Positions 37,381 through 53,096 of a stretch of DNA of 61,144 bases are shown here, in pieces. Origin of the DNA: an uncultured Bacilli bacterium (GTDB taxonomy: Bacteria > Bacillota_I > Bacilli_A > RF39 > UBA660); contig CALVSA010000003.1 of the NCBI GenBank assembly GCA_944358825.1, positions 1-61,144 of the forward strand. The letters are read 5' to 3'. Every line of letters starts with the position of its first letter. Within the stretch, counting starts at the first letter, position 1. A program made the translations under genes and the position numbers. The notes beneath the pieces were generated by a model. That model saw only the letters and a program-made list of their open reading frames with translations. It was not told the DNA's origin and made no database searches.

Positions 37381-38373
37381 ATGAAAAAGGTTGATTATAT
37401 ATTATTAATATTTGTGGTTTTAATTTCACTTTTTGGACTTTTGATGATTTATTCTTCTTCTTATGTATGGTCAGAGTATAAATTTAATGATCCATATAGG
37501 TTTTTAAAGTTGCAATCGATATTTTTAACAATTAGTTATATAGTAATGATTATAGTATCAAATATAGATTATAGGAAATATTTAAATAAAGCAAACATTA
37601 TTTTTGGTGTTTGTTTTATTTTATTGATTTTAGTTTTAATTCCAGGAATCGGAACTGTTAGAAATGGTTCTAGGAGTTGGTTTGGAATAGGTTCTTTTGG
37701 TATACAACCGAGTGAATTTACTAAACTGGCTATGATTATTTTTGTTTCTAAATATCTTACTAATAATGAGAGAATTTTAAAGAACATTAAAAGTGGAGTT
37801 TTGCCTATATTAGGAATATTAATGTTAATATTTTTATTAATTATGCTACAACCGGATTTTGGAACGGGCGTAGTAATAGTTATGACAATTGTTGTATTGC
37901 TTTTTGTAAGTGGAGTGAAAATGAACTTTTTTATAAAATTAGCATCTGTTGGCATTGTTGGAATAACTATATTAATTATGATGGCACCATATAGATTAAA
38001 AAGGATTTTATCGTTTTTAAATCCGTGGGAAGATCCACTAGGTAGTGGTTTTCAGATTATTCAGTCAATGTATGCGATTGGTCCAGGTGGCTTATTAGGT
38101 TTAGGATTAGGAAATTCTATTCAAAAACATTTTTATTTACCAGAACCACAGACAGATTTTATATTTTCTATTATAAGCGAAGAATTTGGTTTTATGGGTG
38201 TTTTGTTAGTAACAGTTTTATTTTTAACAATTATTTATCGCGGATTTAAAATTTCAATGAAATGTGAAGATAAATTTGGCAAATATTTAGCGTTTGGAAT
38301 AACATTTGGATTAGCTTTTCAAGCTTTACTTAATTTAATGGTTGTTGTTGGTTTGATTCCTGTTACTGGGTAA
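37381..38373 (+). CDS. spoVE: N-terminal 330 codons of a split SEDS protein (FtsW/SpoVE family)
   Basis: GSRSWFGIGSFGIQPSEFTKL, QPDFGT, and NPWEDPLGSGFQIIQS. The ORF ends ...GLIPVTG followed by a stop codon from the inserted DNA. The conserved C-terminal PFxSYGGSS is missing here. Confidence 0.9.
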   Translation: MKKVDYILLIFVVLISLFGLLMIYSSSYVWSEYKFNDPYRFLKLQSIFLTISYIVMIIVSNIDYRKYLNKANIIFGVCFILLILVLIPGIGTVRNGSRSWFGIGSFGIQPSEFTKLAMIIFVSKYLTNNERILKNIKSGVLPILGILMLIFLLIMLQPDFGTGVVIVMTIVVLLFVSGVKMNFFIKLASVGIVGITILIMMAPYRLKRILSFLNPWEDPLGSGFQIIQSMYAIGPGGLLGLGLGNSIQKHFYLPEPQTDFIFSIISEEFGFMGVLLVTVLFLTIIYRGFKISMKCEDKFGKYLAFGITFGLAFQALLNLMVVVGLIPVTG

Positions 38374-38409
38374 ACATTGCAAGGTAACTGATTACGACAA
38401 ACAAATTTT

Positions 38410-38428
38410 TCCCTTATTTTATAAGGGA
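38410..38428 (+). terminator. Hairpin just inside the left end of element 2 (possible read-through terminator)
   Basis: TCCCTTAT-ttt-ATAAGGGA 8-bp stem. The downstream T-tract is weak. Confidence 0.35.
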
Positions 38429-38661
38429 TTGGGAGTTTTTAATCTAATTTCCAAAGATAAAAAATATATAAAAAATGCTAAAATTTATAAAAAATCAAAA
38501 AAATTACAGATAAAAAATGAAGGTAACATTACCATTACTGCAAAGAAGTTGTTTTGGTAGTATAAAGAGTTTTGCATATAAGATTAAATAAAGATATTCA
38601 AATATATTGATTTATTTATTTTTTTTTGATAATATAAATAGCAGTAAATGAGGTGTTGTGT

Positions 38662-39885
38662 ATGTATGATGAGTTAGATGATTTTGTTCGTAAGGATTTG
38701 CCAATGCGATTTAACGAATTCGATTTGTTAAAGACGCAATTTTCAAGAATTATTAATTTATTTGAAGGTAAGATTTTGCCGCCATATGAAATTCTTATTC
38801 ATCCATCAAGTGTATGTAATTTGAATTGTGAATGGTGTATTGGAAGTTTTGTTGCTAATAAAAAGAGTTCAAATAAATTGTTAAAAAACAATTTGATGAA
38901 TTTAAATAATATGAAAAAAGTTGTAGACGGCATTATTTCTTATAGGAAGATGGGGATTAATTATTGGACAGGAAAAGAAGAAGAGTTTAAGGTTAATAAT
39001 GTTTCCTTTTCAGGTATAACAGGAGAGCCATTTATAGCAAAAGAATCTATTTTATATGCAATTAATAAATTATCAGAAAATGGAATAAGAGTGGGTGTCT
39101 TTACTAATGGTACTTTAATAGATAGAGATATGTATGATATAATATTAAAAATGGGGTATATATTAATTAGTCTTGATGCAGGTAACTCAATAACTTATTC
39201 TAAGTTAAAATGTTTAAATGATGACAAAAATATTTTTGAAAAAGTAATAAATACGATAAAAGAATTAAATATAAAGAAAAAAGAGTTAAATAGTTCTACA
39301 GATATAAATATAGGATATGTAATTAATCATTATAATTACAAAGAAATATATGATATTGCTCAAAAGTTAAAAAAAATAGGTGTTCATTATTTAAGATTCA
39401 AAACAGATATAGCCTCACTTATGAATATGACAGAAGAAGAAAGAACTTTCGCTAAATCTGAAATAACCCGTTCAAAAAAAGATTTAGAAGATGATAATTT
39501 TAAGATTGTAGAAATTCATAATGTATTAGATGATAGAAAAAAAACAAGAAGTTTTAAAAAGTGCTTTGTTCATTATTTGATTGGCAATATATCAGCGGAT
39601 GGAAATGTTTATCCATGCAATTATCATCCAAAACCGAATGGTTATTATTTTAACTCTGCAATAACTGAAGATTTTGGTCAAATTTGGGATGATATTCCTG
39701 AAAATATTATAGACAAAGATATTCCTAGTATATGTCCAGAAGTATGTGATCCTTTCAAAAATAGGGCTAATAAACTTTTAGAGATTACATATGAAATATA
39801 TCGAAACAAAGGAATTGAATATTTAAAAAAATGTATTGAACATACTTCATCTAAAATAAAAGAAACAGGGAACGTTAGAAAATAA
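38662..39885 (+). CDS. Radical SAM enzyme (about 407 aa) with a Cys-containing C-terminal region
   Basis: HPSSVCNLNCEWCIG (CxxxCxxC), FSGITGEPF, and later cysteines (KKCF, YPCNY, ICPEVCDPF). ATG 38662 follows the SD tgaggtg. Confidence 0.8.
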   Translation: MYDELDDFVRKDLPMRFNEFDLLKTQFSRIINLFEGKILPPYEILIHPSSVCNLNCEWCIGSFVANKKSSNKLLKNNLMNLNNMKKVVDGIISYRKMGINYWTGKEEEFKVNNVSFSGITGEPFIAKESILYAINKLSENGIRVGVFTNGTLIDRDMYDIILKMGYILISLDAGNSITYSKLKCLNDDKNIFEKVINTIKELNIKKKELNSSTDINIGYVINHYNYKEIYDIAQKLKKIGVHYLRFKTDIASLMNMTEEERTFAKSEITRSKKDLEDDNFKIVEIHNVLDDRKKTRSFKKCFVHYLIGNISADGNVYPCNYHPKPNGYYFNSAITEDFGQIWDDIPENIIDKDIPSICPEVCDPFKNRANKLLEITYEIYRNKGIEYLKKCIEHTSSKIKETGNVRK

Positions 39886-39897
39886 ATTATCTATTTT

Positions 39898-40878
39898 CTA
39901 ACGTTCCTTTAATATATCATCAATATAATTTTGAATTATGTAGGCATCTTTTAATGATGCTATATTGTGATTGTATTTTTTATCAAATATTAATTTATCT
40001 AATTCCTTGACTGCTTCTAGTCCCCATACTTTGGTTTTAGGAAAACTATACTTTTTTATGATTTTGTTATTTTTATTAAGAATATAAATAGTTGAATCTC
40101 TATTAATGGAAGTTTTAATATTTTTGTTATAGCATTTAATAAGAAGAATATCCTTATCAGACGTTGCATTTAAATCGAAATGCAATTTACAAGGAATATT
40201 TTGCATTTGGAATTCGGCGATAACATTACTTTCACAATTATGTTCTTTTTGCTCATATAAAACATTGCTTTTGATATTTTTAAATTCTCCAAAGATATAG
40301 TAGAGTACATCCAAAATGTGAGGTGAAATATCAAAAAAACGACCACCGCCAGAAATTTCTTTTTTATATATCCAACTATTTTGAATTAATTTTTGATCAT
40401 ATATACGCGAAAAATATCCTTCAATACTCAATATTTCACTGTATTTTTTTGACATTATTATTTTTTTAAGTTTTTTTATTTGAGGTGTTAATCTTTTATA
40501 ATGTGCAACAAAAACTTTAGTTGATTTCTTTTTATATAGATTAAGTATTGATTTCGCTTGTTTAGAGTTTAAAACAAAAGGTTTTTCAACATAGATTAGT
40601 TGTAGGTTATAATTTGCCAAAATTTTTAAATAGTCATAATGAAATTTTGGAGGAGTGCAAATATAAATTGCGTCAATAGACTCATTTTTTAGCATTCTAT
40701 ATACGTCATCATATTCATGACAATTTTTCAAATTGAGTTTGTGAATTGCGTTGATTGAATGTTCTAATTTAGTTGTACAAATAGCGGCAATTTCATTTTT
40801 ATTGTTGATAAAGGGAGATGTTTTATTTTTAAGTATTACCTTGCCACATCCAATTAATGCCCATTTTACTTTTTTCAT
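39898..40878 (-). CDS. Gfo/Idh/MocA-family NAD(P)-dependent oxidoreductase
   Basis: N-terminal Rossmann WALIGCGKV, AIYICTPPKFHYDY, and the YVEKPF motif. Confidence 0.8.
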   Translation of the reverse strand: MKKVKWALIGCGKVILKNKTSPFINNKNEIAAICTTKLEHSINAIHKLNLKNCHEYDDVYRMLKNESIDAIYICTPPKFHYDYLKILANYNLQLIYVEKPFVLNSKQAKSILNLYKKKSTKVFVAHYKRLTPQIKKLKKIIMSKKYSEILSIEGYFSRIYDQKLIQNSWIYKKEISGGGRFFDISPHILDVLYYIFGEFKNIKSNVLYEQKEHNCESNVIAEFQMQNIPCKLHFDLNATSDKDILLIKCYNKNIKTSINRDSTIYILNKNNKIIKKYSFPKTKVWGLEAVKELDKLIFDKKYNHNIASLKDAYIIQNYIDDILKER

Positions 40879-40983
40879 ATTTTCTCCTTTTGGATATTAT
40901 ATCATTTTTTTATAAAAATATAAATCTTTTTTGTTGAGATTATTTTATTAAAATAGTATAATTATATTGTAAAGGAGGACTTT

Positions 40984-41442
40984 ATGAGACAACCACATCA
41001 AATATTAGCTTTTCCATATAAGAAAGATAACGATGGAAATTATTTATATGGTATTTTTTGTAGAGCTGGAAAGACAGAAAGATGGCAAGGAATAGCTGGG
41101 GGAGTAGAAGAAGGAGAAAGCTTTTTAGAAGCATGCAAAAGGGAAGCAAATGAAGAGGCTGGTATAAGTTATGATGCATCAGTTGTTGAATTAAAATCTA
41201 TGTGTACAATGCCAGTTGTTAATGTAACTAAAGAATTTTTATGGGGAGAGAATGTTTATTTAATATATGAGCATTGTTTTGGTATTGATGCTACAAATGA
41301 GACCATAATATTATCACACGAGCATACAAAAATGGAATGGTTATTATTCGAGGATGCAAAGGCAAAACTTAAATGGGATAGTAATAAAAATGCCTTATGG
41401 GAGCTTAATTGGAAATTGATAAATAATAAACTTGATATATAA
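40984..41442 (+). CDS. Nudix hydrolase, NudB-like (copy A)
   Basis: Nudix box GGVEEGESFLEACKREANEEAG. The overall pattern (WQGIAGG..., KWDSNKNALWEL) resembles E. coli NudB as I recall it. Confidence 0.8.
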   Translation: MRQPHQILAFPYKKDNDGNYLYGIFCRAGKTERWQGIAGGVEEGESFLEACKREANEEAGISYDASVVELKSMCTMPVVNVTKEFLWGENVYLIYEHCFGIDATNETIILSHEHTKMEWLLFEDAKAKLKWDSNKNALWELNWKLINNKLDI

Positions 41443-41504
41443 TTTTTAATTGATTTTTCTTTATAAAAGCTTTATAATATACTGCGATAGCTGGTGGTGA
41501 GTAT

Positions 41505-42302
41505 ATGAAATATGATTTACATATTCATTCAACTATATCTGATGGAAAATTATCAAGAGAAGAAATAATAAAAATAGCGATTAAAAAAGAACTAGAGTTC
41601 ATTTCTTTTACCGAACATAATTCTTTTGAGTCTGTTTTATCACATGATGAAATTAATATAATTAATGGAATTGAATTTGATTCAATATTTAAAAGATCGT
41701 TCCATCTTTTATGTTATTTTCCTAATTATGATAGCGGTATTAGTTATCTTATAAATAAATATAGAGATAACACTAATGATTGTAGTAATATGTTGATAAA
41801 GAAAATAAACCAAGTTTTTAATATTTCTTTTTCGCTTGAAGAATTGATGCATTTTTTTAATAAACAATTTATAACAAAAAGGGATATAATAGATTGGCTT
41901 ATATTTAACAGATATGCAGAAAGTGTAAGCAAAGCTGCCGATATCTATACAAACAAAAAAGCACAGAGTTATGTTCCCAAATACTCTTTGCCTTTCCAAG
42001 AAGTGGCAAGTGTGATAAAAAATATTGGAGGTTATATGTTTCTTGCTCATCCTGTATCTTTAAATTATGATGATAGTGAACTTGAAGAATTTGTTTTACT
42101 TTTGAAAGAAAATGGCTTGGATGGTATAGAAATTGTTAATTCCTCAAAAATGTCTTTGATTGAAACAAAAAAATATAAAAAAATGGCACATAGATACGGG
42201 TTGTTAACGTGTGGTGGTAGTGATTTTCATGATTTCACCAAGCATGATATTGGTGTTGATGGAGATGAATCGGAAGTTTTAATTAGAAAGTTAAAGAAAT
42301 AA
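41505..42302 (+). CDS. PHP-domain phosphoesterase (TrpH/YciV-like), copy A
   Basis: YDLHIHSTISDG, FTEHNS, AHP and GGSDFH metal-ligand motifs. Confidence 0.8.
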   Translation: MKYDLHIHSTISDGKLSREEIIKIAIKKELEFISFTEHNSFESVLSHDEINIINGIEFDSIFKRSFHLLCYFPNYDSGISYLINKYRDNTNDCSNMLIKKINQVFNISFSLEELMHFFNKQFITKRDIIDWLIFNRYAESVSKAADIYTNKKAQSYVPKYSLPFQEVASVIKNIGGYMFLAHPVSLNYDDSELEEFVLLLKENGLDGIEIVNSSKMSLIETKKYKKMAHRYGLLTCGGSDFHDFTKHDIGVDGDESEVLIRKLKK

Positions 42303-42307
42303 ATCTT

Positions 42308-43255
42308 CTAATCTAGAGAATTTATTCTTATCTCGTTTAGTTGTTCTATCGAAAAAACTTTTTCGTTAAATAATAGACTATATTCATCAAATAAGGAATT
42401 TTCAAATATTAATTGATCATCTGTATTAATTGTAACTTTTAAACCATATTCATACATCTTTTTAATTGGGTGACTTTTTATATCTTCAACTCGACACAAT
42501 TTTAAGTTACTAATAGGGCATACGTTAAATTGGACATTTTTATTTTTGGCATATTTCATAATTTTTTCATCATTTATAATAGAAATACCATGTTGAACAA
42601 CATTTAAATGTAAAGTTTTGATTGCTTCATATACGTCATATGCAGTTCCAAATTCACCGACGTGTGCTTTTCTTTTTAAATTTCTTTTTTTGGCGTGTTT
42701 ATATATGTTTTTAAAAATATATATTGGTTTTGATAACTCATCGCCAAATATATCTATTCCATTAAAGATAGTACTATCTATTAATTCCATGATAATAGCA
42801 TCATGTTCTATTTTATAGGCATTTCTGCTAATTCCTAAATCATAGTGTATTTTAATTTTATCTTTATATTTTTCTTTTATTTTTATTAGGTCATGAATAT
42901 ATTTTTCTGATTGGTTATCATAAACTTCGTAAACCAATCTATAATCGACACTCATTTCTAGTATTGATATTCCATCATTAATTGCTGTTAATATTGTACA
43001 TTCAAATAATGTTAATTGACCTTGCTTTGTTGTAGAAATTTTTATAATATTATTTTTTATAAAATTTGTGAGAGAGGTTATGTCTTCATTTTGGGTGAAG
43101 TGTTCTAAATTAAATTGTGGAAACTTTAAGGAAAAAAAATTTCTGTTTGAACCTAAAAGAGCGTGATTATGTAAATCTCCTTTAGGTAAGTTATTAAAAA
43201 GTTCTTTATTGTTTTCTAATATAGAAGTTTTAAAAATATTAAAATCATTTTGCAT
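42308..43255 (-). CDS. Adenosine/AMP-deaminase-family amidohydrolase (short, 315 aa)
   Basis: GDLHNHA, AHVGEFG, VQHGI and TINTDDQLIF motifs. Confidence 0.7.
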   Translation of the reverse strand: MQNDFNIFKTSILENNKELFNNLPKGDLHNHALLGSNRNFFSLKFPQFNLEHFTQNEDITSLTNFIKNNIIKISTTKQGQLTLFECTILTAINDGISILEMSVDYRLVYEVYDNQSEKYIHDLIKIKEKYKDKIKIHYDLGISRNAYKIEHDAIIMELIDSTIFNGIDIFGDELSKPIYIFKNIYKHAKKRNLKRKAHVGEFGTAYDVYEAIKTLHLNVVQHGISIINDEKIMKYAKNKNVQFNVCPISNLKLCRVEDIKSHPIKKMYEYGLKVTINTDDQLIFENSLFDEYSLLFNEKVFSIEQLNEIRINSLD

Positions 43256-43382
43256 AATGAGTCCCTCTTTTATAAAGATTATAACATATTCTGTACATTA
43301 ATAAAACTACAAAATATAGCAAAGAGATTGCAAATTATAAAAAATAGTTGTAAAATAATAAAAAGTTAAGGGGGAATGTCAT

Positions 43383-44195
43383 GTGAATAGAATAAACCTT
43401 CATATTCATTCTGTTGCATCCGATGGTATTTTATCAGGAGTTGAGGTTGTCAAAAAAGCATCTTATGAGAAACTTAAATATATTTCCATAACTGACCATG
43501 ATTCTATTGGCGAAGTACAAAATGCCATTAATTATTCTAAATCAACAAATGTTATTGTAATCCCAGGAGTCGAACTGACGGCTGATTATCCAAATGGTAA
43601 ATGTCATATTTTAGGTTATGGCATTTCACTAGAAATAATTGAAAAGTTTTCCAAACGAATTAGGGAAAGTCGAATAAAAAAAGCAAGGAAGTTAATTGAA
43701 ATGTTAGTAAATAGTGGCTATGAAATAACCTATAATGAGGTGTTAGAAGTTTGTTTAAATGGAGTGATAGGCAGAAGAGATATAGCCAGAATATTATCAA
43801 AGCATGGATATTTTGATAACGAAGATGAAGCAATAAAATCATTGCTTTCTCGAGGTGGAAAATATTATATTGAAACCCCAAAAAATAAAATAGAAGATTG
43901 CATTTCAATAATAAAAGAGAGTGGAGGTATTTCGGTAATAGCACATCCATGGACGTTAAATTTGACGTTAGCAGAATTAAGGAAATTCCTTATTCTATAC
44001 AAGTTTGAAGGGATAGAAACATACAATCATAATATTTCGGAAAAATTATATGAGCAACTAAATAATCTTGCGGTTGAATTGAATCTTTATAAAACTTGCG
44101 GAACAGATTATCATGGTCAAAAAGGGTTAAATGAGTTTATTGTAAACAAAAATGTGGATTGCACTAGGATCCTGCGGAAGATATGTGGTGATTAA
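43383..44195 (+). CDS. PHP-domain phosphoesterase (TrpH/YciV-like), copy B
   Basis: INLHIHSVASDG, ITDHDS, IAHP and GTDYHG motifs. GTG start after the SD aaggggga. Confidence 0.8.
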   Translation: MNRINLHIHSVASDGILSGVEVVKKASYEKLKYISITDHDSIGEVQNAINYSKSTNVIVIPGVELTADYPNGKCHILGYGISLEIIEKFSKRIRESRIKKARKLIEMLVNSGYEITYNEVLEVCLNGVIGRRDIARILSKHGYFDNEDEAIKSLLSRGGKYYIETPKNKIEDCISIIKESGGISVIAHPWTLNLTLAELRKFLILYKFEGIETYNHNISEKLYEQLNNLAVELNLYKTCGTDYHGQKGLNEFIVNKNVDCTRILRKICGD

Positions 44196-44196
44196 A

Positions 44197-45075: not shown

Positions 45076-45077
45076 TT

Positions 45078-46055: not shown

Positions 46056-46056
46056 T

Positions 46057-46989
46057 ATGGAACAAATTGATAATATAATGAAATCTTACAGTATAGATCT
46101 TACAAGTTATAAATCATTATCAAAGGGATATGCATCTAGGAAATGGATTATTGTTGATAAAAATAAGAATAGATACCTTCTTAAGGAAATAAAGAATCAA
46201 TCTATAAATAGATTGTGTAAAATATTGCAGGTTCAGTCTAAACTATATGATTTTTCTCCCAAAATAATTAAAACTAAAAATAATGAATTATATGTTAATT
46301 ATGAGTATAATAGTTACTATTTAAGTGAATTTATTGAAAGTGAAAGGTTGGATGTGATTTCTCATGTGCGGGATATTGGACTTTTTCTTGCTATGTTGCA
46401 TAAAAAAATGTTCGAGGTAAAAAATATTCATACTACTTTCTTAAAAGTGGAAAATAATTTAATTATATTAAATGAATATTTAAAATATCACAAATTACAT
46501 AATCATACTGAATATGTTGAAATAATTAAGTATAAGTTATCTATTTTGGGAAAATTAAAAATTACTGATATTAATTTTAATAATTTAACAAAACAGATTA
46601 TTCATGGTGATTTTTATGGTGATAATATTCTTTATACTAATTCCTCGTATAAAATTGTAGATTTTGATCAGTGTTGTGAGTTTTATAAAGAATATGAAGT
46701 ATTAAGGGGTATGTTTATGTTATTTAGTGATTCTTTATTGAGCAAAGAAGAATTATATCGAATGAAGGAATTTATTGATGGATATTATACTTTAGAAAAG
46801 ATAAAATCGCCAAAAGATGCATACAATTTGTATTTATATATTCAAGCAAATAGTTTATCTAGTATTAAACCTGATGATTATGGCAAGTATGAAAAAATGA
46901 GTTTTGCAAAAAAGAGATTTAGGATATTAAAATGTTTAGTAGAAAATAAAGAGAATGTAATGAAAATTTTAGAAGGAGATTATAGATGA
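46057..46989 (+). CDS. APH/homoserine-kinase-type-II-family phosphotransferase
   Basis: IIHGDFYGDNILY...KIVDFDQ motif. Confidence 0.7.
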   Translation: MEQIDNIMKSYSIDLTSYKSLSKGYASRKWIIVDKNKNRYLLKEIKNQSINRLCKILQVQSKLYDFSPKIIKTKNNELYVNYEYNSYYLSEFIESERLDVISHVRDIGLFLAMLHKKMFEVKNIHTTFLKVENNLIILNEYLKYHKLHNHTEYVEIIKYKLSILGKLKITDINFNNLTKQIIHGDFYGDNILYTNSSYKIVDFDQCCEFYKEYEVLRGMFMLFSDSLLSKEELYRMKEFIDGYYTLEKIKSPKDAYNLYLYIQANSLSSIKPDDYGKYEKMSFAKKRFRILKCLVENKENVMKILEGDYR

Positions 46990-47429
46990 GAAAGCCAATT
47001 CAAGTTTTAGTCTTGCCATATAGACATTACAAAAATGAGATTCAATTTGCTCTATTTAAAAGAGCTGATTTAAATGTGTGGCAAGGAATAGCTGGAGGAG
47101 TAGAAGAAGGAGAGAATATTTTTGAAGCATGCAAAAGGGAGGCAAATGAAGAAGCAGGCATTCCTTTTGATGCAAGCTTTATAAAATTGGATTCAAAATC
47201 AACTATACCAGTAAATTTTATTAATGGAGATTTTCTATGGGGAGAAAGAACGTTTAATGTTATTGAATATTGCTTTGGTGTTTGTGTTGATGATATTGAT
47301 ATAGTTTTGTCTGAAGAGCATAAAGAAGTATTTTGGACGGATTATGAGAAAGCATTTACTATGTTTAAATGGGACAGTAATAGAAATGCTTTATGGGAAT
47401 TAAACGAAAGAATCAAGCGCATGAAATAA
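46986..47429 (+). CDS. Nudix hydrolase, NudB-like (copy B)
   Basis: Nudix box GGVEEGENIFEACKREANEEAG and KWDSNRNALWEL. Overlaps the preceding kinase gene by 4 nt. Confidence 0.8.
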   Translation: MRKPIQVLVLPYRHYKNEIQFALFKRADLNVWQGIAGGVEEGENIFEACKREANEEAGIPFDASFIKLDSKSTIPVNFINGDFLWGERTFNVIEYCFGVCVDDIDIVLSEEHKEVFWTDYEKAFTMFKWDSNRNALWELNERIKRMK

Positions 47430-47557
47430 TTAGAAATGGCTAAAAGAGAAGTTTACTGAAAATTATTTTTTTAATACATTAGTGTACTAAGTTATATTAA
47501 TATTGAATAAAAAGTAAAAATATGGTAATATAATATCTGTTTTAAGGAGGCAGTAAT

Positions 47558-49756
47558 ATGAGTCAAGATATTTATAAAGAGGAAACTGAATATTTAGAAT
47601 ATGTAGAAAAATGTATTGCTAAAGAATTAGAAACAGCAATTGAGATGTTAGATAAACTTCGCAAGCAAAAAATAACATACGATGATGCAAAACGTGGTGA
47701 ACATTTCACAAAAGAAGCATTAATGGATTTATATGCATCCAGAATTAGAAGATTAAAACAAATAATAAATTCACCTTATTTTGGAAGAATGGATTTTACA
47801 CCAAAAGATACAAGAATATCTCAAAAATTATATGTGGGAAAAACAACTGTATCTAACCCGGATAATCAATTAGCGGTTATTGACTGGAGAAGTCCAATAT
47901 CTAGTATGTATTATGATAGTTTAGTTGGAAATGCTAAATACATTGCTCCAGAAGGTATAATTGAAGGATTTATTTCATTAAAACGGCAAATTATTATTGA
48001 AGATGCTATTATTAAATCTGTATTAGATACTGATTTAATAACGGATGATGAAATATTACAAAATTATTTAGATGTTCATGCAGATAATAAGATGAAAGAT
48101 ATTGTTGCATCAATTCAAAAAGAGCAGAATGACATTATCAGAAGACCTATAAACGAAAACGTAATAGTTCAGGGAGTTGCCGGTTCTGGAAAAACAAGTG
48201 TAGCTTTGCATAGGATTGCTTTTTTAATATATTTATTAAATAATAGTGGTAACAAAAAAATGGTTAATTCAGATCAATTTTTGATAATTGGACCCAATAA
48301 TTATTTTTTAGACTATATTTCAGGCGTTTTGCCTGATTTAGATGTTGAAATGGTAAATCAGACAACAATTCCAGCTTTACTTGCAGATTTAGTTAATGAA
48401 AAATTTACTGTGCAAGAATCTACCGAAGAACTCAAAGAATTTTATTCCAATGGTAGAATTAGTTATGAAAGTGCAATAAAAAATTCACCGCAATTTAAGG
48501 AAGCATTGGATAGATATATGCAAGATATTATTGAGTACTATAAAAATACTAATATTGTTTATTATGGTAAAGTGTTGTTTTCAAAGGAAGAAATCGCTGA
48601 GTTACTTAAAAACCTAACAGGTAGTTATAGAGCAAAAATCAATTTTATCCAAAAACGTTTAGTTAAAAAAATAAAAGATGATTATGACAAATATTATGAC
48701 TTGCTAACTGAAGACTTATATCGAGAAGCGCGTTCTTTGCCAAAGAATAGTGAAAGAAGAAGATTATTGTATGATGAAACCACATTACTTGGAAAAGAAG
48801 TGAAAACGGGGCTAACAAAAGTTATAAAAAAACATTTTGAACTCATAAACAAGAAATTATTATTATTGTATGCAGGTTTTATAAATAGTATTGATAGATA
48901 TATGAATATAGAGAATGTTGAAGAATTTAAAAAATTCACAACAAAAAGATTATCTAAGAAAATACTATCAAGGGATGATATCGCTCCAATTTTATATTTA
49001 AAATCACAGTTGGATGATGTAAAGGATTATAACGGTATTATTCATGTGATCGTGGATGAAGCTCAAGATTTGGGATTATTAGAATTTAAGATTTTAAAAA
49101 AATTAATACCAAATGCAACTTTTTCTATTTTTGGCGATTTAAATCAAGCTATCTTTTCTTATCGTTCGGTAAAAGATTGGAAATCTGTCAAAGACGTGGT
49201 TTTTGAAGGTAATGCTAATATTGTTATGATGGATCAATCATATAGAACAACTGATGAAATAATGAGTGAAGCAAATAAGATTTCAGAAATTTTAACTGGG
49301 ACTTATTCAAAGGATATAATTAGGCATGGAAAACCAGTTCAATATATTTCTTGCGATGGTGATTCAGAAGTGTTGTTTATTGCTGAAAAAGTAAAAGAAT
49401 ATCGAAAAAGCGGATACAAGTCAATTGCAATAATATGTAAAGCAGAAGAAGAAGCTATGAGTATAAATAAAAAACTATTGTATTATGGTATTGATGCGAG
49501 AAATATCACACCAAATGATAGAGAGTATCACGGTGGATTATGTACTATTACTTGCAGTTTAGCGAAAGGCTTAGAATTTGACGCTTCTATTTTAGCTAAT
49601 GTTGATTCTAATATGTACAATCCATCGCGTGATATTGATATGAAGTTATTGTACGTAGGTATGACAAGAGCATTACATGAAACCACCATTATTTCAACTG
49701 GAGAATTACCTTCAGTTTTAAAAAAAAGAGGGGAGTCTTTAGTTAGAAAAAAATGA
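47558..49756 (+). CDS. helD: HelD-like UvrD-family (helicase IV-type) ATPase
   Basis: N-terminal coiled-coil region, LAVIDWRSPISSMYYD, Walker A GVAGSGKTSVALHR, VDEAQD, SYRTT and YVGMTRALH. Confidence 0.8.
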   Translation: MSQDIYKEETEYLEYVEKCIAKELETAIEMLDKLRKQKITYDDAKRGEHFTKEALMDLYASRIRRLKQIINSPYFGRMDFTPKDTRISQKLYVGKTTVSNPDNQLAVIDWRSPISSMYYDSLVGNAKYIAPEGIIEGFISLKRQIIIEDAIIKSVLDTDLITDDEILQNYLDVHADNKMKDIVASIQKEQNDIIRRPINENVIVQGVAGSGKTSVALHRIAFLIYLLNNSGNKKMVNSDQFLIIGPNNYFLDYISGVLPDLDVEMVNQTTIPALLADLVNEKFTVQESTEELKEFYSNGRISYESAIKNSPQFKEALDRYMQDIIEYYKNTNIVYYGKVLFSKEEIAELLKNLTGSYRAKINFIQKRLVKKIKDDYDKYYDLLTEDLYREARSLPKNSERRRLLYDETTLLGKEVKTGLTKVIKKHFELINKKLLLLYAGFINSIDRYMNIENVEEFKKFTTKRLSKKILSRDDIAPILYLKSQLDDVKDYNGIIHVIVDEAQDLGLLEFKILKKLIPNATFSIFGDLNQAIFSYRSVKDWKSVKDVVFEGNANIVMMDQSYRTTDEIMSEANKISEILTGTYSKDIIRHGKPVQYISCDGDSEVLFIAEKVKEYRKSGYKSIAIICKAEEEAMSINKKLLYYGIDARNITPNDREYHGGLCTITCSLAKGLEFDASILANVDSNMYNPSRDIDMKLLYVGMTRALHETTIISTGELPSVLKKRGESLVRKK

Positions 49757-51003
49757 AACTTTTAGAAAAAATTAATTGTGAATTGCCTACAATAGCAATT
49801 TTGGGAACAGGTTATGTAGGCTTGCCACTTATAAATCTTTTGTCGCAGAAGGTTCCCGTAATCGCTTATGACATAGATGAGGAGAGAATTACAGAATTAT
49901 TAAAAAATAATAAAAATAACAATATTACATTTACGTATGATGAATCCTTGCTTAGGAAGGCAGATGTAATAATAGTTTGTGTTTCTACACCAATTGATGA
50001 GAATAATCAGCCAAACTTAAATTATATAAAGAATGCTTGTATTTCTATTGCTAAAAATATTAAAGATGGAGTGCTAATTATTTTTGAGACATCATACATG
50101 CCGACATGTACGGAAAATATATGTATACCCTTGATTGAAAAAAAATCTGGATTAAAAAATGATATTAATTTTTACGTTGGCTATTCTCCTGAGAGAATAA
50201 ATCCTGGTGATATTCAAAACACATTGTCTAACATTACCAAGTTAATCGCTTCTCCATCAAAAAAGGTTTTAAATGCTATGAAGTATATTTACTCAGATAT
50301 AGCCGGTATAAACGTTTACGAAGTGAATGATATTAAAATTGCAGAACTATCTAAATTGGTAGAGAATTGTCAAAGAGACTTAAATATTGCCTTTGTAAAT
50401 GAGTTATCTATACTTTGTCATAGATTAAACATTGATGTTCAAGAAGTTATTAATTCAGCAGGGACAAAATGGAATTTTACAAAATATTATCCAGGTCTAG
50501 TCGGTGGTGGATGTGTCGGGGTAAATTCATATTATTTGATGAATCTTGCAGAACAATATGGAGTCAGATTGAATAGTTTAGAGATTGCGAGAAAAATTAA
50601 TTTATCAATGACAACGTTTATCGTTGCAGAAATTAGTAGATTAATTGGAAATGCGAATAGAAATAAAATCAAAGTAGTAATTTATGGTTATTCTTATAAA
50701 GAAAATATTCCTGATACACGAAATACAAGGGTAGAAGATTTATATAGAAATTTAATCAATGAAGAATATAGTGTTTGTATTTGTGATTATAATGTTTCAT
50801 CTTGTCAGTATGTGAGTAAAGAAGATATAAGTGATGCTGATATTATTATTTTAGCTGTTGCTCATAGAAATTACATTAATTGGAATAATGAAGAGATTAG
50901 TAAAAAATTTAATCAGAAATCAAAGTATAAAATTTTTATGGATGTAAAGTCTGTTTATAAAGATAAGGTTATGCCTAAAACAATTACATATTGGCATTTG
51001 TAA
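49753..51003 (+). CDS. Nucleotide-sugar dehydrogenase (UDP-glucose/UDP-ManNAc/TviB family)
   Basis: IAILGTGYVGLP Rossmann motif, YSPERINPGD, and the catalytic-Cys region PGLVGGGCVGV. The ATG overlaps the helD stop by 4 nt. Confidence 0.8.
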   Translation: MKLLEKINCELPTIAILGTGYVGLPLINLLSQKVPVIAYDIDEERITELLKNNKNNNITFTYDESLLRKADVIIVCVSTPIDENNQPNLNYIKNACISIAKNIKDGVLIIFETSYMPTCTENICIPLIEKKSGLKNDINFYVGYSPERINPGDIQNTLSNITKLIASPSKKVLNAMKYIYSDIAGINVYEVNDIKIAELSKLVENCQRDLNIAFVNELSILCHRLNIDVQEVINSAGTKWNFTKYYPGLVGGGCVGVNSYYLMNLAEQYGVRLNSLEIARKINLSMTTFIVAEISRLIGNANRNKIKVVIYGYSYKENIPDTRNTRVEDLYRNLINEEYSVCICDYNVSSCQYVSKEDISDADIIILAVAHRNYINWNNEEISKKFNQKSKYKIFMDVKSVYKDKVMPKTITYWHL

Positions 51004-51009
51004 TAAAGT

Positions 51010-51032
51010 AAAGATGAGAAATACTCATCTTT
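51010..51032 (+). terminator. Intrinsic terminator ending the helD-dehydrogenase operon
   Basis: AAAGATGAG-aaata-CTCATCTTT stem, followed by TT(a)T. Confidence 0.6.
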
Positions 51033-51116
51033 TTATATGTAATAAAAAAGTAAGATTAATAATGTTATTCATTATTTTCTTTTAATTAGAATACTTTTTA
51101 TAGAGGTGGCTAATCT

Positions 51117-51251
51117 ATGAAAAGAATTGATAAAAACGGTAAAAGAAGGAAACTAAATATGGAATTTATTTATAAAAAAGATGGTACAAAATTAGAAGAA
51201 ATTATGAAGGAGGGATATTTGTGTTATTTAAGAAATTTAAAAGCCAAATGA
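51117..51251 (+). CDS. Small basic hypothetical protein (44 aa) upstream of recombinase 2
   Basis: SD agaggtgg 7 nt upstream. Sequence MKRIDKNGKRRKLNMEFIYKKDGTKLEEIMKEGYLCYLRNLKAK*. Not in the ORF track. Confidence 0.3.
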   Translation: MKRIDKNGKRRKLNMEFIYKKDGTKLEEIMKEGYLCYLRNLKAK

Positions 51252-51333
51252 TTTGCTTTTTTGAAGTTTTGATGGTAACATGGCATTGTGAGGTCTTGGT
51301 ATTGCAAAATAATAGATTGGAGGGAATAAATTA

Positions 51334-52908
51334 ATGCAATACCTATGTGCTGGTTATAATAGATTATCAGATGCTGATAATAAAAACGATGAAAGTTCTT
51401 CTATTCAAAGTCAAAAAATGATAATTGATTCTTTTGCTAAATTTAATAATTTTCAAATTGTTAAACATTATGTAGATGATGGATATTCTGGAGGTAATTT
51501 TGATAGACCTGGGTTTAAAGAAATGATCGAGGATATTGAAAAAGGAAAAATTAATTGTGTCATTACAAAGGACTTATCTAGACTTGGTCGTGAAATGTAT
51601 AAAACTGGTAACTATATTGAAGAATACTTTAGAGAACACGGTGTTAGGTATATTGCTATTAATGATTCCTATGATTCTACTGTTGGTGATTCAATGTTAG
51701 GAATTAGATTAAGTGTTAATGATTTATATTTAAGAGATGTATCTAAAAAAGTTAAAACGTCTCTTAAAGCAAAACAAACTAAAGGCGATTATATTGGCTC
51801 TTTTCCTAGATATGGATATAAAAAAGATCCAAATGATAAACATAAATTAATTGTTGATGAAGAAGTCAGATATGTTGTTGAACTCATTTATGATTTAGCA
51901 CTTGAGGGAAAAAGCCCTAGAAAAATAGCAGAAATATTAACCTTAAAAAAGATTCCTATTCCAATAGTTTATAAGGGTGAGCCTAGAGGTAAAAATATTA
52001 CAGAAAATGATGGCTTTGGAATTTGGAAAAGGCAAACTGTTAAAGATATACTAACAAGTGAAATGTATATTGGAAATATGGTACAAAATACCTTTAATAA
52101 AGTCAGTTATAATTCTAAAAAATTAAGAAAGACTGATACTAGTGAATACATTGTCGTACCAAATACTCATGAGGCAATTATATCGAAAGAAACATTTGAT
52201 AAAGTTCAAGATTTACTAAATTCTAGGACAAAAGACAAAAAAACTGATAGTCAATTAGAATATTTACTTGGAGGACTTCTTTATTGTAAAGAGTGTGGAA
52301 GAAGTATTAGAATTAGTAAAGATGTTTTAAAAACTACTGTAAGACACTATACACAATGTAATCTATATACGAGAAAAGGCAAATTTGGTGTTTGTTCATC
52401 TCATAGGATTAATTATGATTGGTTAGAAGAAGATATTATAGAATATTTACAAAATATATGCGAAGAATTTTGCAAGTATTATGACTTTAACGAACTAGAA
52501 GATAATTCAGAAGAAATAGTGATTAAAAATTTAAGGGAAATTAATAAGAAAATTGAAAAGATTGATAATGAAATAAATTCTCATAAGAATATGCTCGATA
52601 GTTTATATATGGATAAAGTTAGTGGACTTGTTGATGAAGATATGTATAAAAGAATTTATGATAAAACTAAAACAGAAATAAAGAAATTAGAAATTGAATT
52701 AGAGGAATTAATGAGAAAAAAAGATAATAATAAGAGTGTTCAAAATACTTCTTCATTTAATCGGTGCAAAAAATCTGTTTTAGATTATATGTCGCTTAAA
52801 AATCCTACTAAAAATCAAATTATGAGACTTATTGATCGAATAGAAATTGATAAAGATAAGAAAATTTATGTTCATTTGAAATTTCCAGAATTAATTATTA
52901 ATGATTAA
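51334..52908 (+). CDS. Large serine recombinase
   Basis: YNRLSDAD...SSSIQSQ catalytic region, ITKDLSRLGRE, zinc ribbon CKECGR...C...C, and a C-terminal coiled coil (EIELEELMRKK). SD ttggaggg. Confidence 0.9.
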   Translation: MQYLCAGYNRLSDADNKNDESSSIQSQKMIIDSFAKFNNFQIVKHYVDDGYSGGNFDRPGFKEMIEDIEKGKINCVITKDLSRLGREMYKTGNYIEEYFREHGVRYIAINDSYDSTVGDSMLGIRLSVNDLYLRDVSKKVKTSLKAKQTKGDYIGSFPRYGYKKDPNDKHKLIVDEEVRYVVELIYDLALEGKSPRKIAEILTLKKIPIPIVYKGEPRGKNITENDGFGIWKRQTVKDILTSEMYIGNMVQNTFNKVSYNSKKLRKTDTSEYIVVPNTHEAIISKETFDKVQDLLNSRTKDKKTDSQLEYLLGGLLYCKECGRSIRISKDVLKTTVRHYTQCNLYTRKGKFGVCSSHRINYDWLEEDIIEYLQNICEEFCKYYDFNELEDNSEEIVIKNLREINKKIEKIDNEINSHKNMLDSLYMDKVSGLVDEDMYKRIYDKTKTEIKKLEIELEELMRKKDNNKSVQNTSSFNRCKKSVLDYMSLKNPTKNQIMRLIDRIEIDKDKKIYVHLKFPELIIND

Positions 52909-53000
52909 AAAACAGTTATAAAGCAATGTTATATTTATTTTTCAGTAATATAGATAGTGTAACCTATACAAAATAAGTTGCACAAGAAAGATTTAGGGGG

Positions 53001-53096
53001 GTAACTTTGCCTTTCTTAAGTTATGGAGGTAGTAGTTTAATTATTACTATGATTGGTATAGGTATTTTACTAAATATTTCAAGGTCAGAAAAATAA
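53001..53096 (+). CDS. spoVE: C-terminal 31 codons of the split SEDS protein (FtsW/SpoVE)
   Basis: Reads [31 protein letters not shown], the conserved SEDS C-terminal motif. It has no start codon of its own. Not in the ORF track. Confidence 0.85.

What the first reader, a model, noticed from the sequence alone, without database searches (positions are those of the whole stretch)
37381..53096. SEDS (SpoVE/FtsW) gene split by a second, unrelated 14.6-kb serine-recombinase element
**The two fragments.**
- ORF 37381..38373 is a SEDS protein that stops at ...VVGLIPVTG*. It lacks the conserved C-terminal PFxSYGGSS motif.
- At 53001..53096, outside any listed ORF, the same strand encodes [31 protein letters not shown].

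**The junctions.**
- The junctions lie in G-runs: ACTGGG|TAAAC at 38365-38375 and TAGGGGG|GTAACT at 52994-53006.
- Removing 38371..53000 (14,630 bp, with a 3-bp ambiguity) gives ...CCT GTT ACT GGG GTA ACT TTG CCT..., a 361-aa SEDS protein.
- The rebuilt attB has the dyad GTTAC-TGGG-GTAAC.

**The recombinase.** A second large serine recombinase (51334..52908) lies at the right end of the insert. Its sequence clearly differs from that of recombinase 1.
Basis: partly seen in the sequence, partly recalled or inferred. Interest (0 to 1): 0.88.

Follow-up and report, generated by a model that had tools for sequence, protein, structure and literature searches.

The report
Mobile island splitting sporulation gene spoVE
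A 14.6-kb non-viral mobile DNA island carrying its own serine recombinase sits exactly inside spoVE, a spore-cortex gene of an uncultured gut bacterium; it is a new target gene for a known trick in which such islands are cut out to rebuild a sporulation gene.

Summary
Removing 38371..53000 joins ORF 37381..38373 to 53001..53096. The result is a 361-aa SEDS protein that passes NCBI's SpoVE model. A public metagenome contig (99.2% identical flanks) carries exactly this uninterrupted gene, so a natural empty site exists.

The insert is an integrative island with no phage or conjugation genes. Its large serine recombinase (51334..52908) lies at the right edge, preceded by a conserved 44-aa ORF (51117..51251), a candidate directionality factor. 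The crossover is the GG of the Gly330 codon, inside the dyad that encodes V-T-G-V-T.

Recombinases 53-99% identical sit at the same codon in at least ten other loci, with unrelated cargo (2.9 kb to more than 10 kb; some carry a relaxase and a coupling protein). The 1.9-kb recombination module is 95-96% identical across hosts whose spoVE is only 71-75% identical. It therefore moves horizontally.

The neighbouring partner gene spoVD is split by a second, unrelated element.

Excision during sporulation is inferred by analogy (skin, SPβ, gin), not shown. This copy's attR also has one G more than five orthologous elements, which may impair excision.

Verdict: real; a new member of a known kind.

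The parts
37381..38373 (+). spoVE 5' fragment: codons 1-330, ending in a TAA stop supplied by the first bases of the element
   Evidence: The joined protein hits TIGR02615 spoVE at 457.6 bits (cut-off 448.8) and Pfam PF01098 at E = 6.6e-120.
38360..38390 (+). attL: B arm CCTGTTACT, crossover GG (38368-38369), P' arm GTAAACATTGCAAGGTAACTG
   Evidence: Three-way comparison with empty site L001. The P' arm, with its invariant TAACTG, is conserved in 7 elements.
38371..53000 (+). The inserted element, 14,630 bp, 26.5% G+C (same as the host's 26.4%)
38371..38652 (+). Conserved non-coding left end of the element. It includes a terminator-like hairpin CCCTTAT-N-ATAAGGG at 38411-38427.
   Evidence: 77-84% identical to the left ends of five orthologous elements whose cargo differs.
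38653..39885 (+). Cargo: radical SAM / SPASM enzyme
   Evidence: Pfam PF04055 and PF13186. Only weak, sub-threshold resemblance to viperin models.
39898..40878 (-). Cargo: Gfo/Idh/MocA oxidoreductase
40984..41442 (+). Cargo: NUDIX hydrolase (paralogue of 46986-47429, 50% identical)
41505..42302 (+). Cargo: PHP-domain phosphoesterase
42308..43255 (-). Cargo: adenosine-deaminase-family protein
   Evidence: Pfam PF00962 at E = 8.8e-35. NCBIfam adenosine deaminase models hit below cut-off.
43383..44195 (+). Cargo: second PHP-domain protein
44152..46989 (+). Cargo: APH-like kinase (44152-45075), P-loop protein (45078-46055), APH-like kinase (46057-46989)
   Evidence: Weak Pfam APH and P-loop hits.
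46986..47429 (+). Cargo: NUDIX hydrolase
47558..49756 (+). Cargo: HelD-like RNA-polymerase recycling motor (UvrD-type helicase fold)
   Evidence: NCBIfam NF041464 HelD_BACSU at 421 bits (cut-off 419). Pfam UvrD domains.
49753..51003 (+). Cargo: nucleotide-sugar dehydrogenase, followed by an intrinsic terminator at 51010-51032
   Evidence: TIGR03026 at 294 bits. Terminator scan.
51117..51251 (+). Conserved 44-aa ORF (MKRIDKNGKRRKLNMEFIYKKDGTKLEEIMKEGYLCYLRNLKAK), a candidate recombination directionality factor. A conserved AT-rich block (CATTATTT...GAATA) lies just upstream.
   Evidence: Present directly upstream of the recombinase in every family member, including the 2.9-kb minimal elements. 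pN 0.10-0.19 versus pS 0.43-0.78. No Pfam or PHROG match.
51334..52908 (+). Large serine recombinase 2 (524 aa): Resolvase, Recombinase and Zn-ribbon domains; nucleophile Ser12 in the R-L-S motif
   Evidence: PHROG integrase phrog_95 at E = 5.5e-104. Closest solved relatives are TnpX (2mhc, 6e-28) and SprA/YokA (9dxh, 1.4e-16).
52950..53020 (+). attR: the P arm (...AAAATAAGTTGCACAAGAAAGATTTAG), a run of six G (52996-53001) and the B' arm GTAACTTTGCC. The in-frame crossover GG is 52998-52999. Five orthologous elements have one G fewer.
53001..53096 (+). spoVE 3' fragment: codons 331-361, carrying the PFLSYGGSS motif and the last membrane helix
   Evidence: 100% identical to the tail of empty-site contig L001.
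20568..36291 (+). Context: the partner gene spoVD, split into 20568-21812 and 35632-36291 by element 1 (21813-35631, 13,819 bp, shared core CAACAA). Element 1 carries recombinase 1 (33996-35675) and a 68-aa ORF (33779-33985).
   Evidence: TIGR02214 spoVD_pbp covers profile positions 3-414 and 426-636 on the two halves. Join mapped with intact orthologues. Recombinase domains.

Best explanation
**What it is.** Window 38371..53000 is an integrative genomic island of a family that specifically targets spoVE. It has no phage genes and no conjugation genes.

**Shown.**
- Its large serine recombinase (51334..52908) belongs to a subfamily whose members all sit at the same position, 53-99% identical.
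- That position is the GG of the Gly330 codon, inside the V-T-G-V-T-encoding dyad GTNAC-N-GG-N-GTNAC.
- The integrated state truncates SpoVE at residue 330, with a stop codon supplied by the element. The truncated protein lacks the PFLSYGGSS motif and the last membrane helix.
- Conservative recombination between attL and attR at the GG restores exactly the 361-aa gene seen in an element-free relative.

**Inferred.** This follows skin/sigK, SPβ/spsM, vfbin/spoVFB, vrin/spoVR, gin/gerE and yin/yabG.
- In the terminally differentiating mother cell, the recombinase and the conserved 44-aa protein encoded just upstream (a candidate directionality factor, like the 42-aa GirX) excise the element as a circle.
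- Intact SpoVE is then made for cortex peptidoglycan synthesis.
- The forespore chromosome keeps the element, so it is inherited.
- Its partner SpoVD would be rebuilt in the same way by the unrelated element 1.

**Evolution.**
- The conserved ends are a roughly 0.28-kb left end and a 1.9-kb right module (44-aa ORF, recombinase, attP arm).
- The right module moves between species and carries exchangeable cargo, here a nucleotide/sugar-modifying gene set with a HelD-like protein.
For: **The insertion is precise.**
- The join is in frame and matches the full Pfam profile.
- A 100% identical intact protein exists, on an empty-site contig with 99.2% identical flanks.
- A second empty site occurs in a relative whose protein is 91% identical.

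**The gene is a sporulation gene, judged by the best available models.**
- TIGR02615 spoVE scores 457.6 bits against a cut-off of 448.8, above ftsW at 419.
- The partner PBP halves match spoVD.
- SpoIIIAH-like, Germane-domain and collagen-like (BclA-type) genes lie in the right flank.
- Named relatives are placed in order RF39 (PMC8035907). RF39 is predicted to form spores (PMC10868615).

**The recombinase is intact.** It has all three domains and the Ser nucleophile.

**The same site recurs.**
- Loci L003, L005-7, L058, L089, L090 and L137-139 have a recombinase orthologue followed by the spoVE tail. L030 has the family-type attL, but its contig ends before a recombinase.
- Both gene halves are open wherever they are on the contig. 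The tails show pN 0.15-0.30 against pS 0.45-0.91.
- An unrelated recombinase (24% identity) lies in L041 behind a spoVE cut at the same codon; L080 has a very similar left end.

**The 44-aa ORF is a conserved gene.** It is under purifying selection and is retained even in the 2.9-kb minimal elements.

**The module moves horizontally.** It is 96% and 95% identical to L089 and L090, whose spoVE 5' parts are 74% and 71% identical.

**No phage or transfer genes.**

**Precedent for non-phage intervening elements with a small directionality factor.** PMC5595907.
Against: - There is no direct evidence of excision. The predicted attP junction was absent from the JGI metagenome contigs, both as the exact sequence and as a family consensus.
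- The empty-site contig differs at 22 positions, so it is another strain, not this chromosome after excision.
- This copy's attR has six G where L089, L090, L003, L005 and L058 have the equivalent of five. A 1-bp shift between the P arm and the crossover could reduce or abolish recombination. If cleavage followed the P arm, the product would be frameshifted.
- The same six-G allele occurs in L091-L093, where L091 and L092 carry an intact spoVE next to the module. This fits a non-excising variant.
- No sporulation-sigma promoter could be validated. The upstream conserved block is only loosely σE-like, and the σ70 scan is not enriched.
- The SpoVE assignment exceeds its cut-off by only 9 bits. 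I could not census SEDS paralogues in the genome.
- In C. difficile, SpoVD and SpoVE also act at asymmetric division (PMC10693644). Mother-cell-only excision could not serve that role.
Confidence: 0.58

Rival explanations
1. Safe-harbour integration with no developmental role. The recombinase targets spoVE only because the V-T-G-V-T coding dyad is invariant across species and the gene is dispensable for vegetative growth. Carriers either cannot complete sporulation, or the element excises only for horizontal transfer. Gene restoration would be a by-product, not a programmed step.
For: - The attB core is invariant at all non-wobble positions in 80 species.
- The module is clearly horizontally mobile.
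- Distant family members are ICE/IME-like, with relaxase and coupling-protein genes.
- Only 4 of 80 species representatives are split.
- Sporulation has been lost repeatedly in these orders (PMC10868615).
- No attP junction was found.
Against: - Both halves of spoVE are intact in every split locus that shows them, and the tails look selected.
- The same operon holds a second element in the partner gene spoVD. This is hard to reconcile with a host that still needs spores, unless both elements excise.
- Every experimentally studied element of this architecture in a mother-cell gene does excise during sporulation (PMC4191935, PMC5595907).
Confidence: 0.28
2. This particular copy is a locked-in, no longer excisable derivative. 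The extra G in attR offsets the P half-site from the crossover. spoVE would then be permanently broken in this strain, even if the family as a whole is excisable.
For: - The window has six G. Five orthologous elements, including the two closest that interrupt spoVE (L089, L090), have the equivalent of five.
- The six-G allele is real rather than a read error. It recurs in three independent assemblies (L091-L093), and two of them (L091, L092) carry an intact spoVE copy beside the module.
Against: - The recombinase, the 44-aa ORF and both spoVE halves show no damage.
- Whether a serine recombinase tolerates a 1-bp shift next to the central dinucleotide was not tested here.
Confidence: 0.12
3. 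Assembly chimera or prophage. Either the insert is an artefact of metagenome assembly, or it is a (defective) prophage.
For: The window may be a metagenome-assembled contig. Some related contigs (L089, L091) have odd tail duplications.
Against: - The same junction architecture recurs in more than ten independent contigs from different studies.
- No phage structural, lysis or packaging gene was found by Pfam or PHROGs.
- The closest recombinases are at most 39% identical in IMG/VR and about 41% in GenBank phages.
Confidence: 0.02

Closest known systems
gin element in gerE of Bacillus cereus ATCC 10987 (GirC recombinase and 42-aa GirX; PMC5595907)
   Same: It is a non-phage island inside a mother-cell sporulation gene. 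A large serine recombinase and a very small accessory protein (42 aa there, 44 aa here) act on it. A short common core allows in-frame restoration.
   Different: The target gene differs (gerE versus spoVE). gin has three recombinase genes and a 9-bp overlap. GirC/GirX excision was shown in vivo and in vitro, whereas nothing has been shown here.
skin element in sigK (SpoIVCA) of Bacillus subtilis, Clostridioides difficile and others
   Same: The recombinase gene sits at the element's edge, immediately upstream of the 3' gene fragment. Cargo is not conserved between species, and sizes range from 2.6 to 48 kb (bioRxiv 10.1101/2022.02.25.481979). The range here is comparable, from 2.9 kb to 14.6 kb or more.
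   Different: skin splits a sigma-factor gene and is prophage-derived. Here the target is a peptidoglycan polymerase gene, and the relatives are ICE/IME-like rather than phage-like.
SPβ prophage in spsM (SprA integrase and SprB directionality factor)
   Same: SprA (YokA) is the best full-length solved relative of recombinase 2 (9dxh, E = 1.4e-16). The logic is the same: integrase plus a small directionality factor.
   Different: SPβ is an active phage. The sequence relationship is distant.
TnpX/TndX-type recombinases of clostridial mobilisable and conjugative transposons (Tn4451, Tn5397)
   Same: TnpX has the closest solved catalytic domain (2mhc, E = 6e-28). Family members at 53-62% identity lie at the edge of elements with relaxase and T4SS coupling-protein genes.
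   Different: Those transposons are not known (from my own knowledge) to target spoVE. The window's element has no transfer genes.
Heterocyst-specific fdxN element of Anabaena (XisF)
   Same: It is developmentally excised by a large serine recombinase in a terminally differentiated cell. The NCBIfam XisF model gives a weak hit (97 bits).
   Different: The hit is far below the family cut-off of 375, and the phylum and developmental programme are different.

Membership tests
Sporulation-gene intervening elements (skin, SPβ, vfbin, vrin, gin, yin) | Inserted inside the coding sequence of a sporulation gene expressed in the mother cell | tested here: met
   The joined gene passes TIGR02615 spoVE (457.6 against a cut-off of 448.8). 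Mother-cell expression itself is assumed from the B. subtilis paradigm, not tested.
Sporulation-gene intervening elements (skin, SPβ, vfbin, vrin, gin, yin) | Element-encoded site-specific recombinase, usually at the element's edge | tested here: met
   Large serine recombinase at 51334-52908, ending 92 nt before the spoVE 3' fragment.
Sporulation-gene intervening elements (skin, SPβ, vfbin, vrin, gin, yin) | Precise deletion between short shared cores restores the intact reading frame | tested here: met
   The in-silico join equals a natural intact allele (P0001 on L001).
Sporulation-gene intervening elements (skin, SPβ, vfbin, vrin, gin, yin) | Excision occurs during sporulation, in the mother cell only | not testable with these tools
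   This needs reads, PCR or culture. The attP junction search in assembled JGI contigs was negative, which is uninformative.
Sporulation-gene intervening elements (skin, SPβ, vfbin, vrin, gin, yin) | Directionality factor, or a recombinase under a sporulation sigma factor | tested here: inconclusive
   A conserved 44-aa ORF under purifying selection is a candidate. The upstream block is conserved, but no promoter assignment could be validated.
Large serine recombinases | N-terminal resolvase catalytic domain with a Ser nucleophile, plus recombinase domain and zinc ribbon | tested here: met
   PF00239, PF07508 and PF13408 all pass their cut-offs. Ser12 aligns with the TnpX catalytic region.
Large serine recombinases | Crossover at a 2-bp central dinucleotide within imperfect dyads, with little attB/attP homology | tested here: met
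   Only one register (the GG of Gly330) restores the frame in L003, L005 and L058. attB is the dyad GTNAC-N-GG-N-GTNAC. In attP, CAGTT/AAGTT and TAACTG are placed symmetrically. Cleavage chemistry was not tested.
SEDS protein, SpoVE subtype | Full-length FTSW_RODA_SPOVE fold including the C-terminal PFxSYGGS motif | tested here: met
   Met only after the join: profile positions 4-354 of 356. The 330-aa fragment lacks the motif.
SEDS protein, SpoVE subtype | Sporulation-specific paralogue, distinct from the vegetative FtsW and RodA of the same genome | not tested
   Only 61 kb of this genome is available. The model margin over ftsW is 38 bits. In C. difficile the dcw-encoded pair is sporulation-specific (PMC10693644).
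Prophage | Virion, packaging or lysis genes | tested here: not met
   None found by Pfam or PHROGs.
Integrative conjugative or mobilisable element | Relaxase, coupling protein or T4SS genes | tested here: not met
   None in the window's element. They are present in the more distant relatives L137-L139.
Known anti-phage defence systems (PADLOC) | A complete set of system proteins above model thresholds | tested here: not met
   Only isolated weak hits: pVip at 53.6 bits, the deaminase part of a CARF-ADA model, and GajB-like helicase hits explained by HelD.

The most novel reading that the evidence does not exclude
In this uncultured RF39-type gut lineage, both halves of the cortex peptidoglycan synthase are gated. 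The SEDS polymerase SpoVE and its class B PBP partner SpoVD are each interrupted by an independent serine-recombinase excision. Cortex synthesis would then need two separate DNA rearrangements in the mother cell, a two-key gate.

The spoVE-targeting recombination module (left end, 44-aa factor, recombinase) would also act as a horizontally spreading docking platform. It descends from conjugative elements and swaps nucleotide-modifying cargo between species.

One corollary follows: sporulation genes reported as missing from such genomes (for example spoVD in RF39) are partly split genes, not lost ones.
Probability: 0.4. Interest if true: 0.72.

Novelty: new member of a known kind. Interest (0 to 1): 0.6.

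Why it matters
- **New target genes.** It adds spoVE, and with its neighbour spoVD, to the short list of sporulation genes known to be split by excisable elements (sigK, spsM, spoVFB, spoVR, gerE, yabG). Full-text searches found no report of either gene being split.
- **First case in the cortex synthase.** As far as those searches show, this would be the first case that touches the peptidoglycan-synthesising machinery itself. Both partners are hit in one operon.
- **New host lineage.** It extends the phenomenon to an uncultured, reduced-genome gut lineage related to the Mollicutes.
- **Annotation consequence.** Split genes are called truncated or absent. This can bias predictions of sporulation capacity from metagenome-assembled genomes.
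- **A defined recombinase system.** The family offers a compact large serine recombinase with defined attB and attP, a GG crossover, a candidate 44-aa directionality factor, and natural evidence that it works across hosts.

Tried and rejected
- **attP circle junction.** I searched the JGI metagenome contigs for the exact predicted junction and for a family consensus. Both gave zero hits. This is uninformative, because circles are rarely assembled and most carriers come from ENA samples.
- **Phage origin.** The best recombinase relatives are 36-39% identical in IMG/VR, about 41% in GenBank phages and 42% in plasmids.
- **Defence-system reading of the cargo.** No complete system was found. The viperin-like hit on the radical SAM protein is far below cut-off, and the protein has a SPASM domain.
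- **Tail travelling with the module.** A BLAST block ran to 53077, which suggested that the spoVE tail moves with the recombination module. I rejected this: the L089 and L090 tails are only 70% and 61% identical to the window's.
- **Extra G as a sequencing error.** Rejected as the sole explanation, because the same allele occurs in three other assemblies.
- **Host order.** I first recalled the lineage as order RFN20. That was wrong: the named relatives are placed in RF39, family CAG-822 (PMC8035907).
- **Promoters.** σ70-type promoter hits in 50900-53200 are no more frequent than in shuffled sequence.
- **Same-strain check of the G-run.** I tried to check the six-G run in an independent assembly of the same strain. 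The 99%-identical recombinases turned out to lie in a different host species.

Full report
**1.
- ORF 37381..38373 encodes 330 residues of a SEDS protein ending ...GLIPVTG, followed by TAA.
- On the same strand, 53001..53096 encodes [31 protein letters not shown] and a stop.
- Joining 38370 to 53001 gives an open 361-codon frame. The cut can slide over the shared G's without changing the product.
- The product matches Pfam FTSW_RODA_SPOVE over positions 4-354 of 356 (E = 6.6e-120).
- The insert is 14,630 bp and has the same G+C content as the window (26.5% against 26.4%).

**2. A natural empty site exists.**
- A search of about 5.8 billion proteins returned a 361-aa protein 100% identical to the in-silico join (P0001).
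- Its 2,784-bp contig (L001) is 99.2% identical to window 35748..38380. It then continues without interruption at 52998..53161 (99.4%).
- Aligning attL, attR and this attB shows the following:
  - attB = CCTGTTACT-GG-GGTAACTTTGCC;
  - attL takes the left half and attR the right half;
  - the only shared bases are G's.
- L001 differs from the window at 22 positions. It is therefore a sister strain without the element, not this chromosome after excision.
- A second relative (L002, protein 91% identical) also has an uninterrupted gene, followed by the same downstream glycosyltransferase gene as in the window.

**3. What the split gene is.**
- The joined protein scores 457.6 bits on NCBIfam TIGR02615 (spoVE; cut-off 448.8). 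This is above ftsW (419.2) and rodA (334.8).
- The gene follows mraY. Upstream lie ftsA, ftsZ and a class B PBP whose two pieces (20568..21821 and 35668..36291) match spoVD_pbp profile positions 3-414 and 426-636.
- Intact orthologues place that join at 21812|35632, with the shared core CAACAA. Element 1 is therefore 13,819 bp, with recombinase 1 (33996..35675) at its right edge.
- Recombinases 1 and 2 are about 25% identical.
- The right flank holds a SpoIIIAH-like protein, a Germane-domain protein and a collagen-repeat protein of the exosporium type.
- So the host looks like a spore former, and both partners of the cortex SEDS-bPBP pair are split.

**4. The host lineage.**
- Relatives of the gene are almost all uncultured gut 'Bacilli bacterium' MAGs. 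They include Candidatus Fimihabitans and Candidatus Coprosoma.
- Their describers placed those two genera in GTDB order RF39, family CAG-822 (PMC8035907).
- Part of that apparent absence may come from split genes. This is my inference.

**5. What the insert is.**
- Its thirteen genes encode:
  - a radical SAM/SPASM enzyme;
  - a Gfo/Idh/MocA oxidoreductase;
  - two paralogous NUDIX hydrolases;
  - two PHP phosphoesterases;
  - an adenosine-deaminase-family protein;
  - two APH-like kinases and a P-loop protein;
  - a HelD-like RNA-polymerase recycling motor (NF041464, 421 bits against a cut-off of 419);
  - a nucleotide-sugar dehydrogenase;
  - the recombinase.
- There is no virion, lysis, packaging, relaxase or secretion gene, and no complete known defence system.
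- Recombinase 2 has the Resolvase, Recombinase and zinc-ribbon domains. Ser12 in an R-L-S motif aligns with the catalytic region of TnpX (2mhc, E = 6e-28). SprA of SPβ is the best full-length solved relative (9dxh, E = 1.4e-16).
- No annotated phage, plasmid or IMG/VR contig has a relative above about 42% identity.

**6. It belongs to a family that targets this codon.**
- Recombinase 2 has many orthologues at 53-99% identity.
- In every orthologue context I retrieved, the recombinase gene is followed within about 100 nt by an orphan spoVE tail ([13 protein letters not shown]...). In L008, L091 and L092 an intact spoVE also lies upstream (point 9).
- Where the contig reaches far enough, spoVE upstream is cut after codon 330.
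- The elements differ widely in size and cargo:

| Locus | Size | Cargo |
|---|---|---|
| L058 | 2.9 kb | only the small ORF and the recombinase |
| L090 | 2.9 kb | RelB |
| L003 | 3.3 kb | a queuosine-salvage protein |
| L089 | 5.8 kb | GT2, APH, NUDIX |
| L005 | about 9 kb | WYL regulator, PRTase, NUDIX, radical SAM, dNK, aminotransferase, Vut_1 |
| window | 14.6 kb | see point 5 |

- The 62% and 53% identical orthologues (L137-L139) sit at the edge of elements with relaxase and T4SS coupling-protein genes. They too are followed by the spoVE tail.
- The family therefore probably descends from conjugative or mobilisable elements.
- Among 80 GTDB species representatives with this gene, four are split at codon 330 (L030, L041, L058, L080). 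In L041 the nearby recombinase is unrelated (24% identity), and L080 has a very similar left end.

**7. The crossover.**
- In L003, L005 and L058 only one register restores the frame: B-left ...GTNACN, then [GG], then N-GTNAC....
- The crossover dinucleotide is therefore the invariant GG of the Gly330 codon.
- It lies at the centre of a dyad that exists because the peptide V-T-G-V-T is itself palindromic at the codon level. 75 of 80 species have GTNAC-N-GG-N-GTNAC, and every non-wobble base is invariant.
- This explains the broad host range.
- On the element side, the P arm (AAAAT[A/C]AGTT-N13-TTAG) and the P' arm (GTA...TAACTG) are conserved. CAGTT/AAGTT and TAACTG sit roughly symmetrically about the centre.

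**8. A conserved module with swapped cargo.**
- Window 51067..53000 is 96.0% identical to L089 and 95.1% identical to L090. The spoVE 5' parts of those hosts are only 74% and 71% identical to the window's.
- The non-coding left end (38371..38652) is 84% identical, and 77-79% identical to the more distant elements. It contains a terminator-like hairpin just inside attL.
- Everything between the two ends is unrelated.
- Directly upstream of the recombinase, every member has a roughly 44-aa ORF (51117..51251 in the window) with a Shine-Dalgarno sequence.
  - pN is 0.10-0.19 against pS 0.43-0.78.
  - It is called as a gene in 41 protein clusters. No Pfam, PHROG or source name is attached to it.
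- Its size, position and retention in the minimal elements make it the obvious candidate for a recombination directionality factor, like the 42-aa GirX of the gin element (PMC5595907). This is inference.
- A conserved AT-rich block (CATTATTT-N11-12-GAATA) precedes it. It loosely resembles a σE-type promoter, but I could not validate that. σ70-like sites are not enriched.

**9.
- The window's attR reads TTTAGGGGGGTAAC, with six G. L089, L090, L003, L005 and L058 read TTTAG-GG-N-GTNAC, one base fewer.
- The six-G allele is real. It recurs in L091, L092 and L093.
- In L091 and L092 the module lies behind an intact spoVE and is flanked by a 179-bp direct repeat of the tail region.
- For the window, an in-frame product needs cleavage in the register set by the B' arm. 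The register set by the P arm would give five G's and a frameshift.
- Whether the enzyme tolerates this 1-bp offset is unknown. This copy may therefore excise poorly or not at all.
- Duplicated tails also occur in L008, L020 and L089. I have no explanation for them.

**10. Mechanism and its rivals.**
- *Best-supported reading (0.58).* This is a sporulation-gene intervening element. The integrated state truncates SpoVE. In the mother cell, the recombinase and its small partner excise the island and restore the gene. The forespore keeps the island.
- *Support.*
  - The architecture is identical to the proven cases (PMC4191935, PMC5595907).
  - Both gene halves are intact in all split loci that show them.
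  - Two recombinase lineages target this codon.
  - A second element sits in the partner gene.
- *Against.*
  - There is no junction evidence.
  - The attR has an extra G.
  - The SpoVE call has a thin margin.
  - In C. difficile the dcw-encoded SpoVD and SpoVE also serve asymmetric division (PMC10693644). A mother-cell-only excision could not supply that role.
- *Main rival (0.28).* spoVE is simply a conserved, vegetatively dispensable docking site.
- *Sub-rival (0.12).* This copy is locked in.
- *Chimera or prophage.* Effectively excluded (0.02).

**11. Novelty.**
- Split sporulation genes restored by large serine recombinases are well known for sigK, spsM, spoVFB, spoVR, gerE and yabG.
- Full-text searches found no report of spoVE or spoVD being split.
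- I rate this a new member of a known kind. The notable features are:
  - both partners of the SEDS-bPBP pair are split;
  - the recombination module is horizontally mobile and swaps cargo, and it has ICE-like relatives;
  - the host is an uncultured, reduced-genome lineage.

Noticed in passing
window 20568-36291: The partner gene spoVD is split by a separate 13.8-kb element (21813-35631, core CAACAA). Its own recombinase lies at 33996-35675, with a conserved 68-aa ORF just upstream (33779-33985). Cargo includes an archaeal-type SAM synthetase, a radical SAM enzyme, a GT1 glycosyltransferase, kinases and an AbiEi-like regulator. Orthologues of recombinase 1 (82-93% identical) occur upstream of spoVE in L003, L017, L022, L040, L051 and L059, and 42-44% identical relatives in L019, L027 and L035.
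   Followed up: partly
window 35626-35675: The reading frame of recombinase 1 runs across attR1 into host spoVD sequence. Its last 14 or so codons are host-encoded and would change after excision.
   Followed up: no
window 52996-53001; L091 11658, L092 5199, L093 3550: The attR G-run has six G here and in three other assemblies. Five orthologous elements have the equivalent of five. This may be a non-excising allele.
   Followed up: partly
L091 7063-11850, L092 604-5400, L089 11664-13602, L008 6996-11754, L020 10997-11802: The spoVE tail is duplicated. In L091, L092 and L008 an intact spoVE is followed by a recombinase module and then a second tail copy. The direct repeat is 179 bp in L091. 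L089 has two identical tails 1.8 kb apart, and L020 has a second tail with no recombinase. The origin is unexplained.
   Followed up: partly
L041 6597-11681; L080 5724-6719: spoVE is cut at the same codon 330, but the element left ends are different and similar to each other. In L041 the nearby recombinase is only 24% identical to recombinase 2. This looks like convergent use of the same site.
   Followed up: partly
L137 1-11760; L138 and L139 1-11790: Recombinase orthologues at 62% and 53% identity lie at the edge of elements with relaxase, a TraG/VirD4-type coupling protein and an N6/N4 methylase. They are followed by the spoVE tail. This suggests an ICE/IME ancestry for the family.
   Followed up: partly
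window 38653-51003: The cargo has a nucleotide/nucleoside theme: radical SAM, adenosine-deaminase-like protein, 2 NUDIX, 2 PHP, 2 APH-like kinases, a nucleotide-sugar dehydrogenase and a HelD-like RNA-polymerase recycling motor. Distantly related NUDIX genes recur in the cargo of L005 and L089. The function is unknown; one guess is synthesis of a modified nucleoside plus self-protection.
   Followed up: partly
window 53110-55343 (- strand): A GT2-TPR glycosyltransferase lies next to a 381-aa collagen-repeat (GxT) protein, reminiscent of exosporium BclA-type glycoproteins. The repeat region produces several spurious overlapping ORFs.
   Followed up: no
window 687-5134: A Tad/Flp-type pilus gene set: TadE-like small proteins, a CpaE-like ATPase, a CpaF-type ATPase and TadB/C-like membrane proteins. 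This was judged from the translations only.
   Followed up: no
literature (PMC10868615) versus window 20568-36291: The reported 'reduced presence or absence of spoVD' in order RF39 may partly be an annotation artefact of split genes like this one.
   Followed up: no
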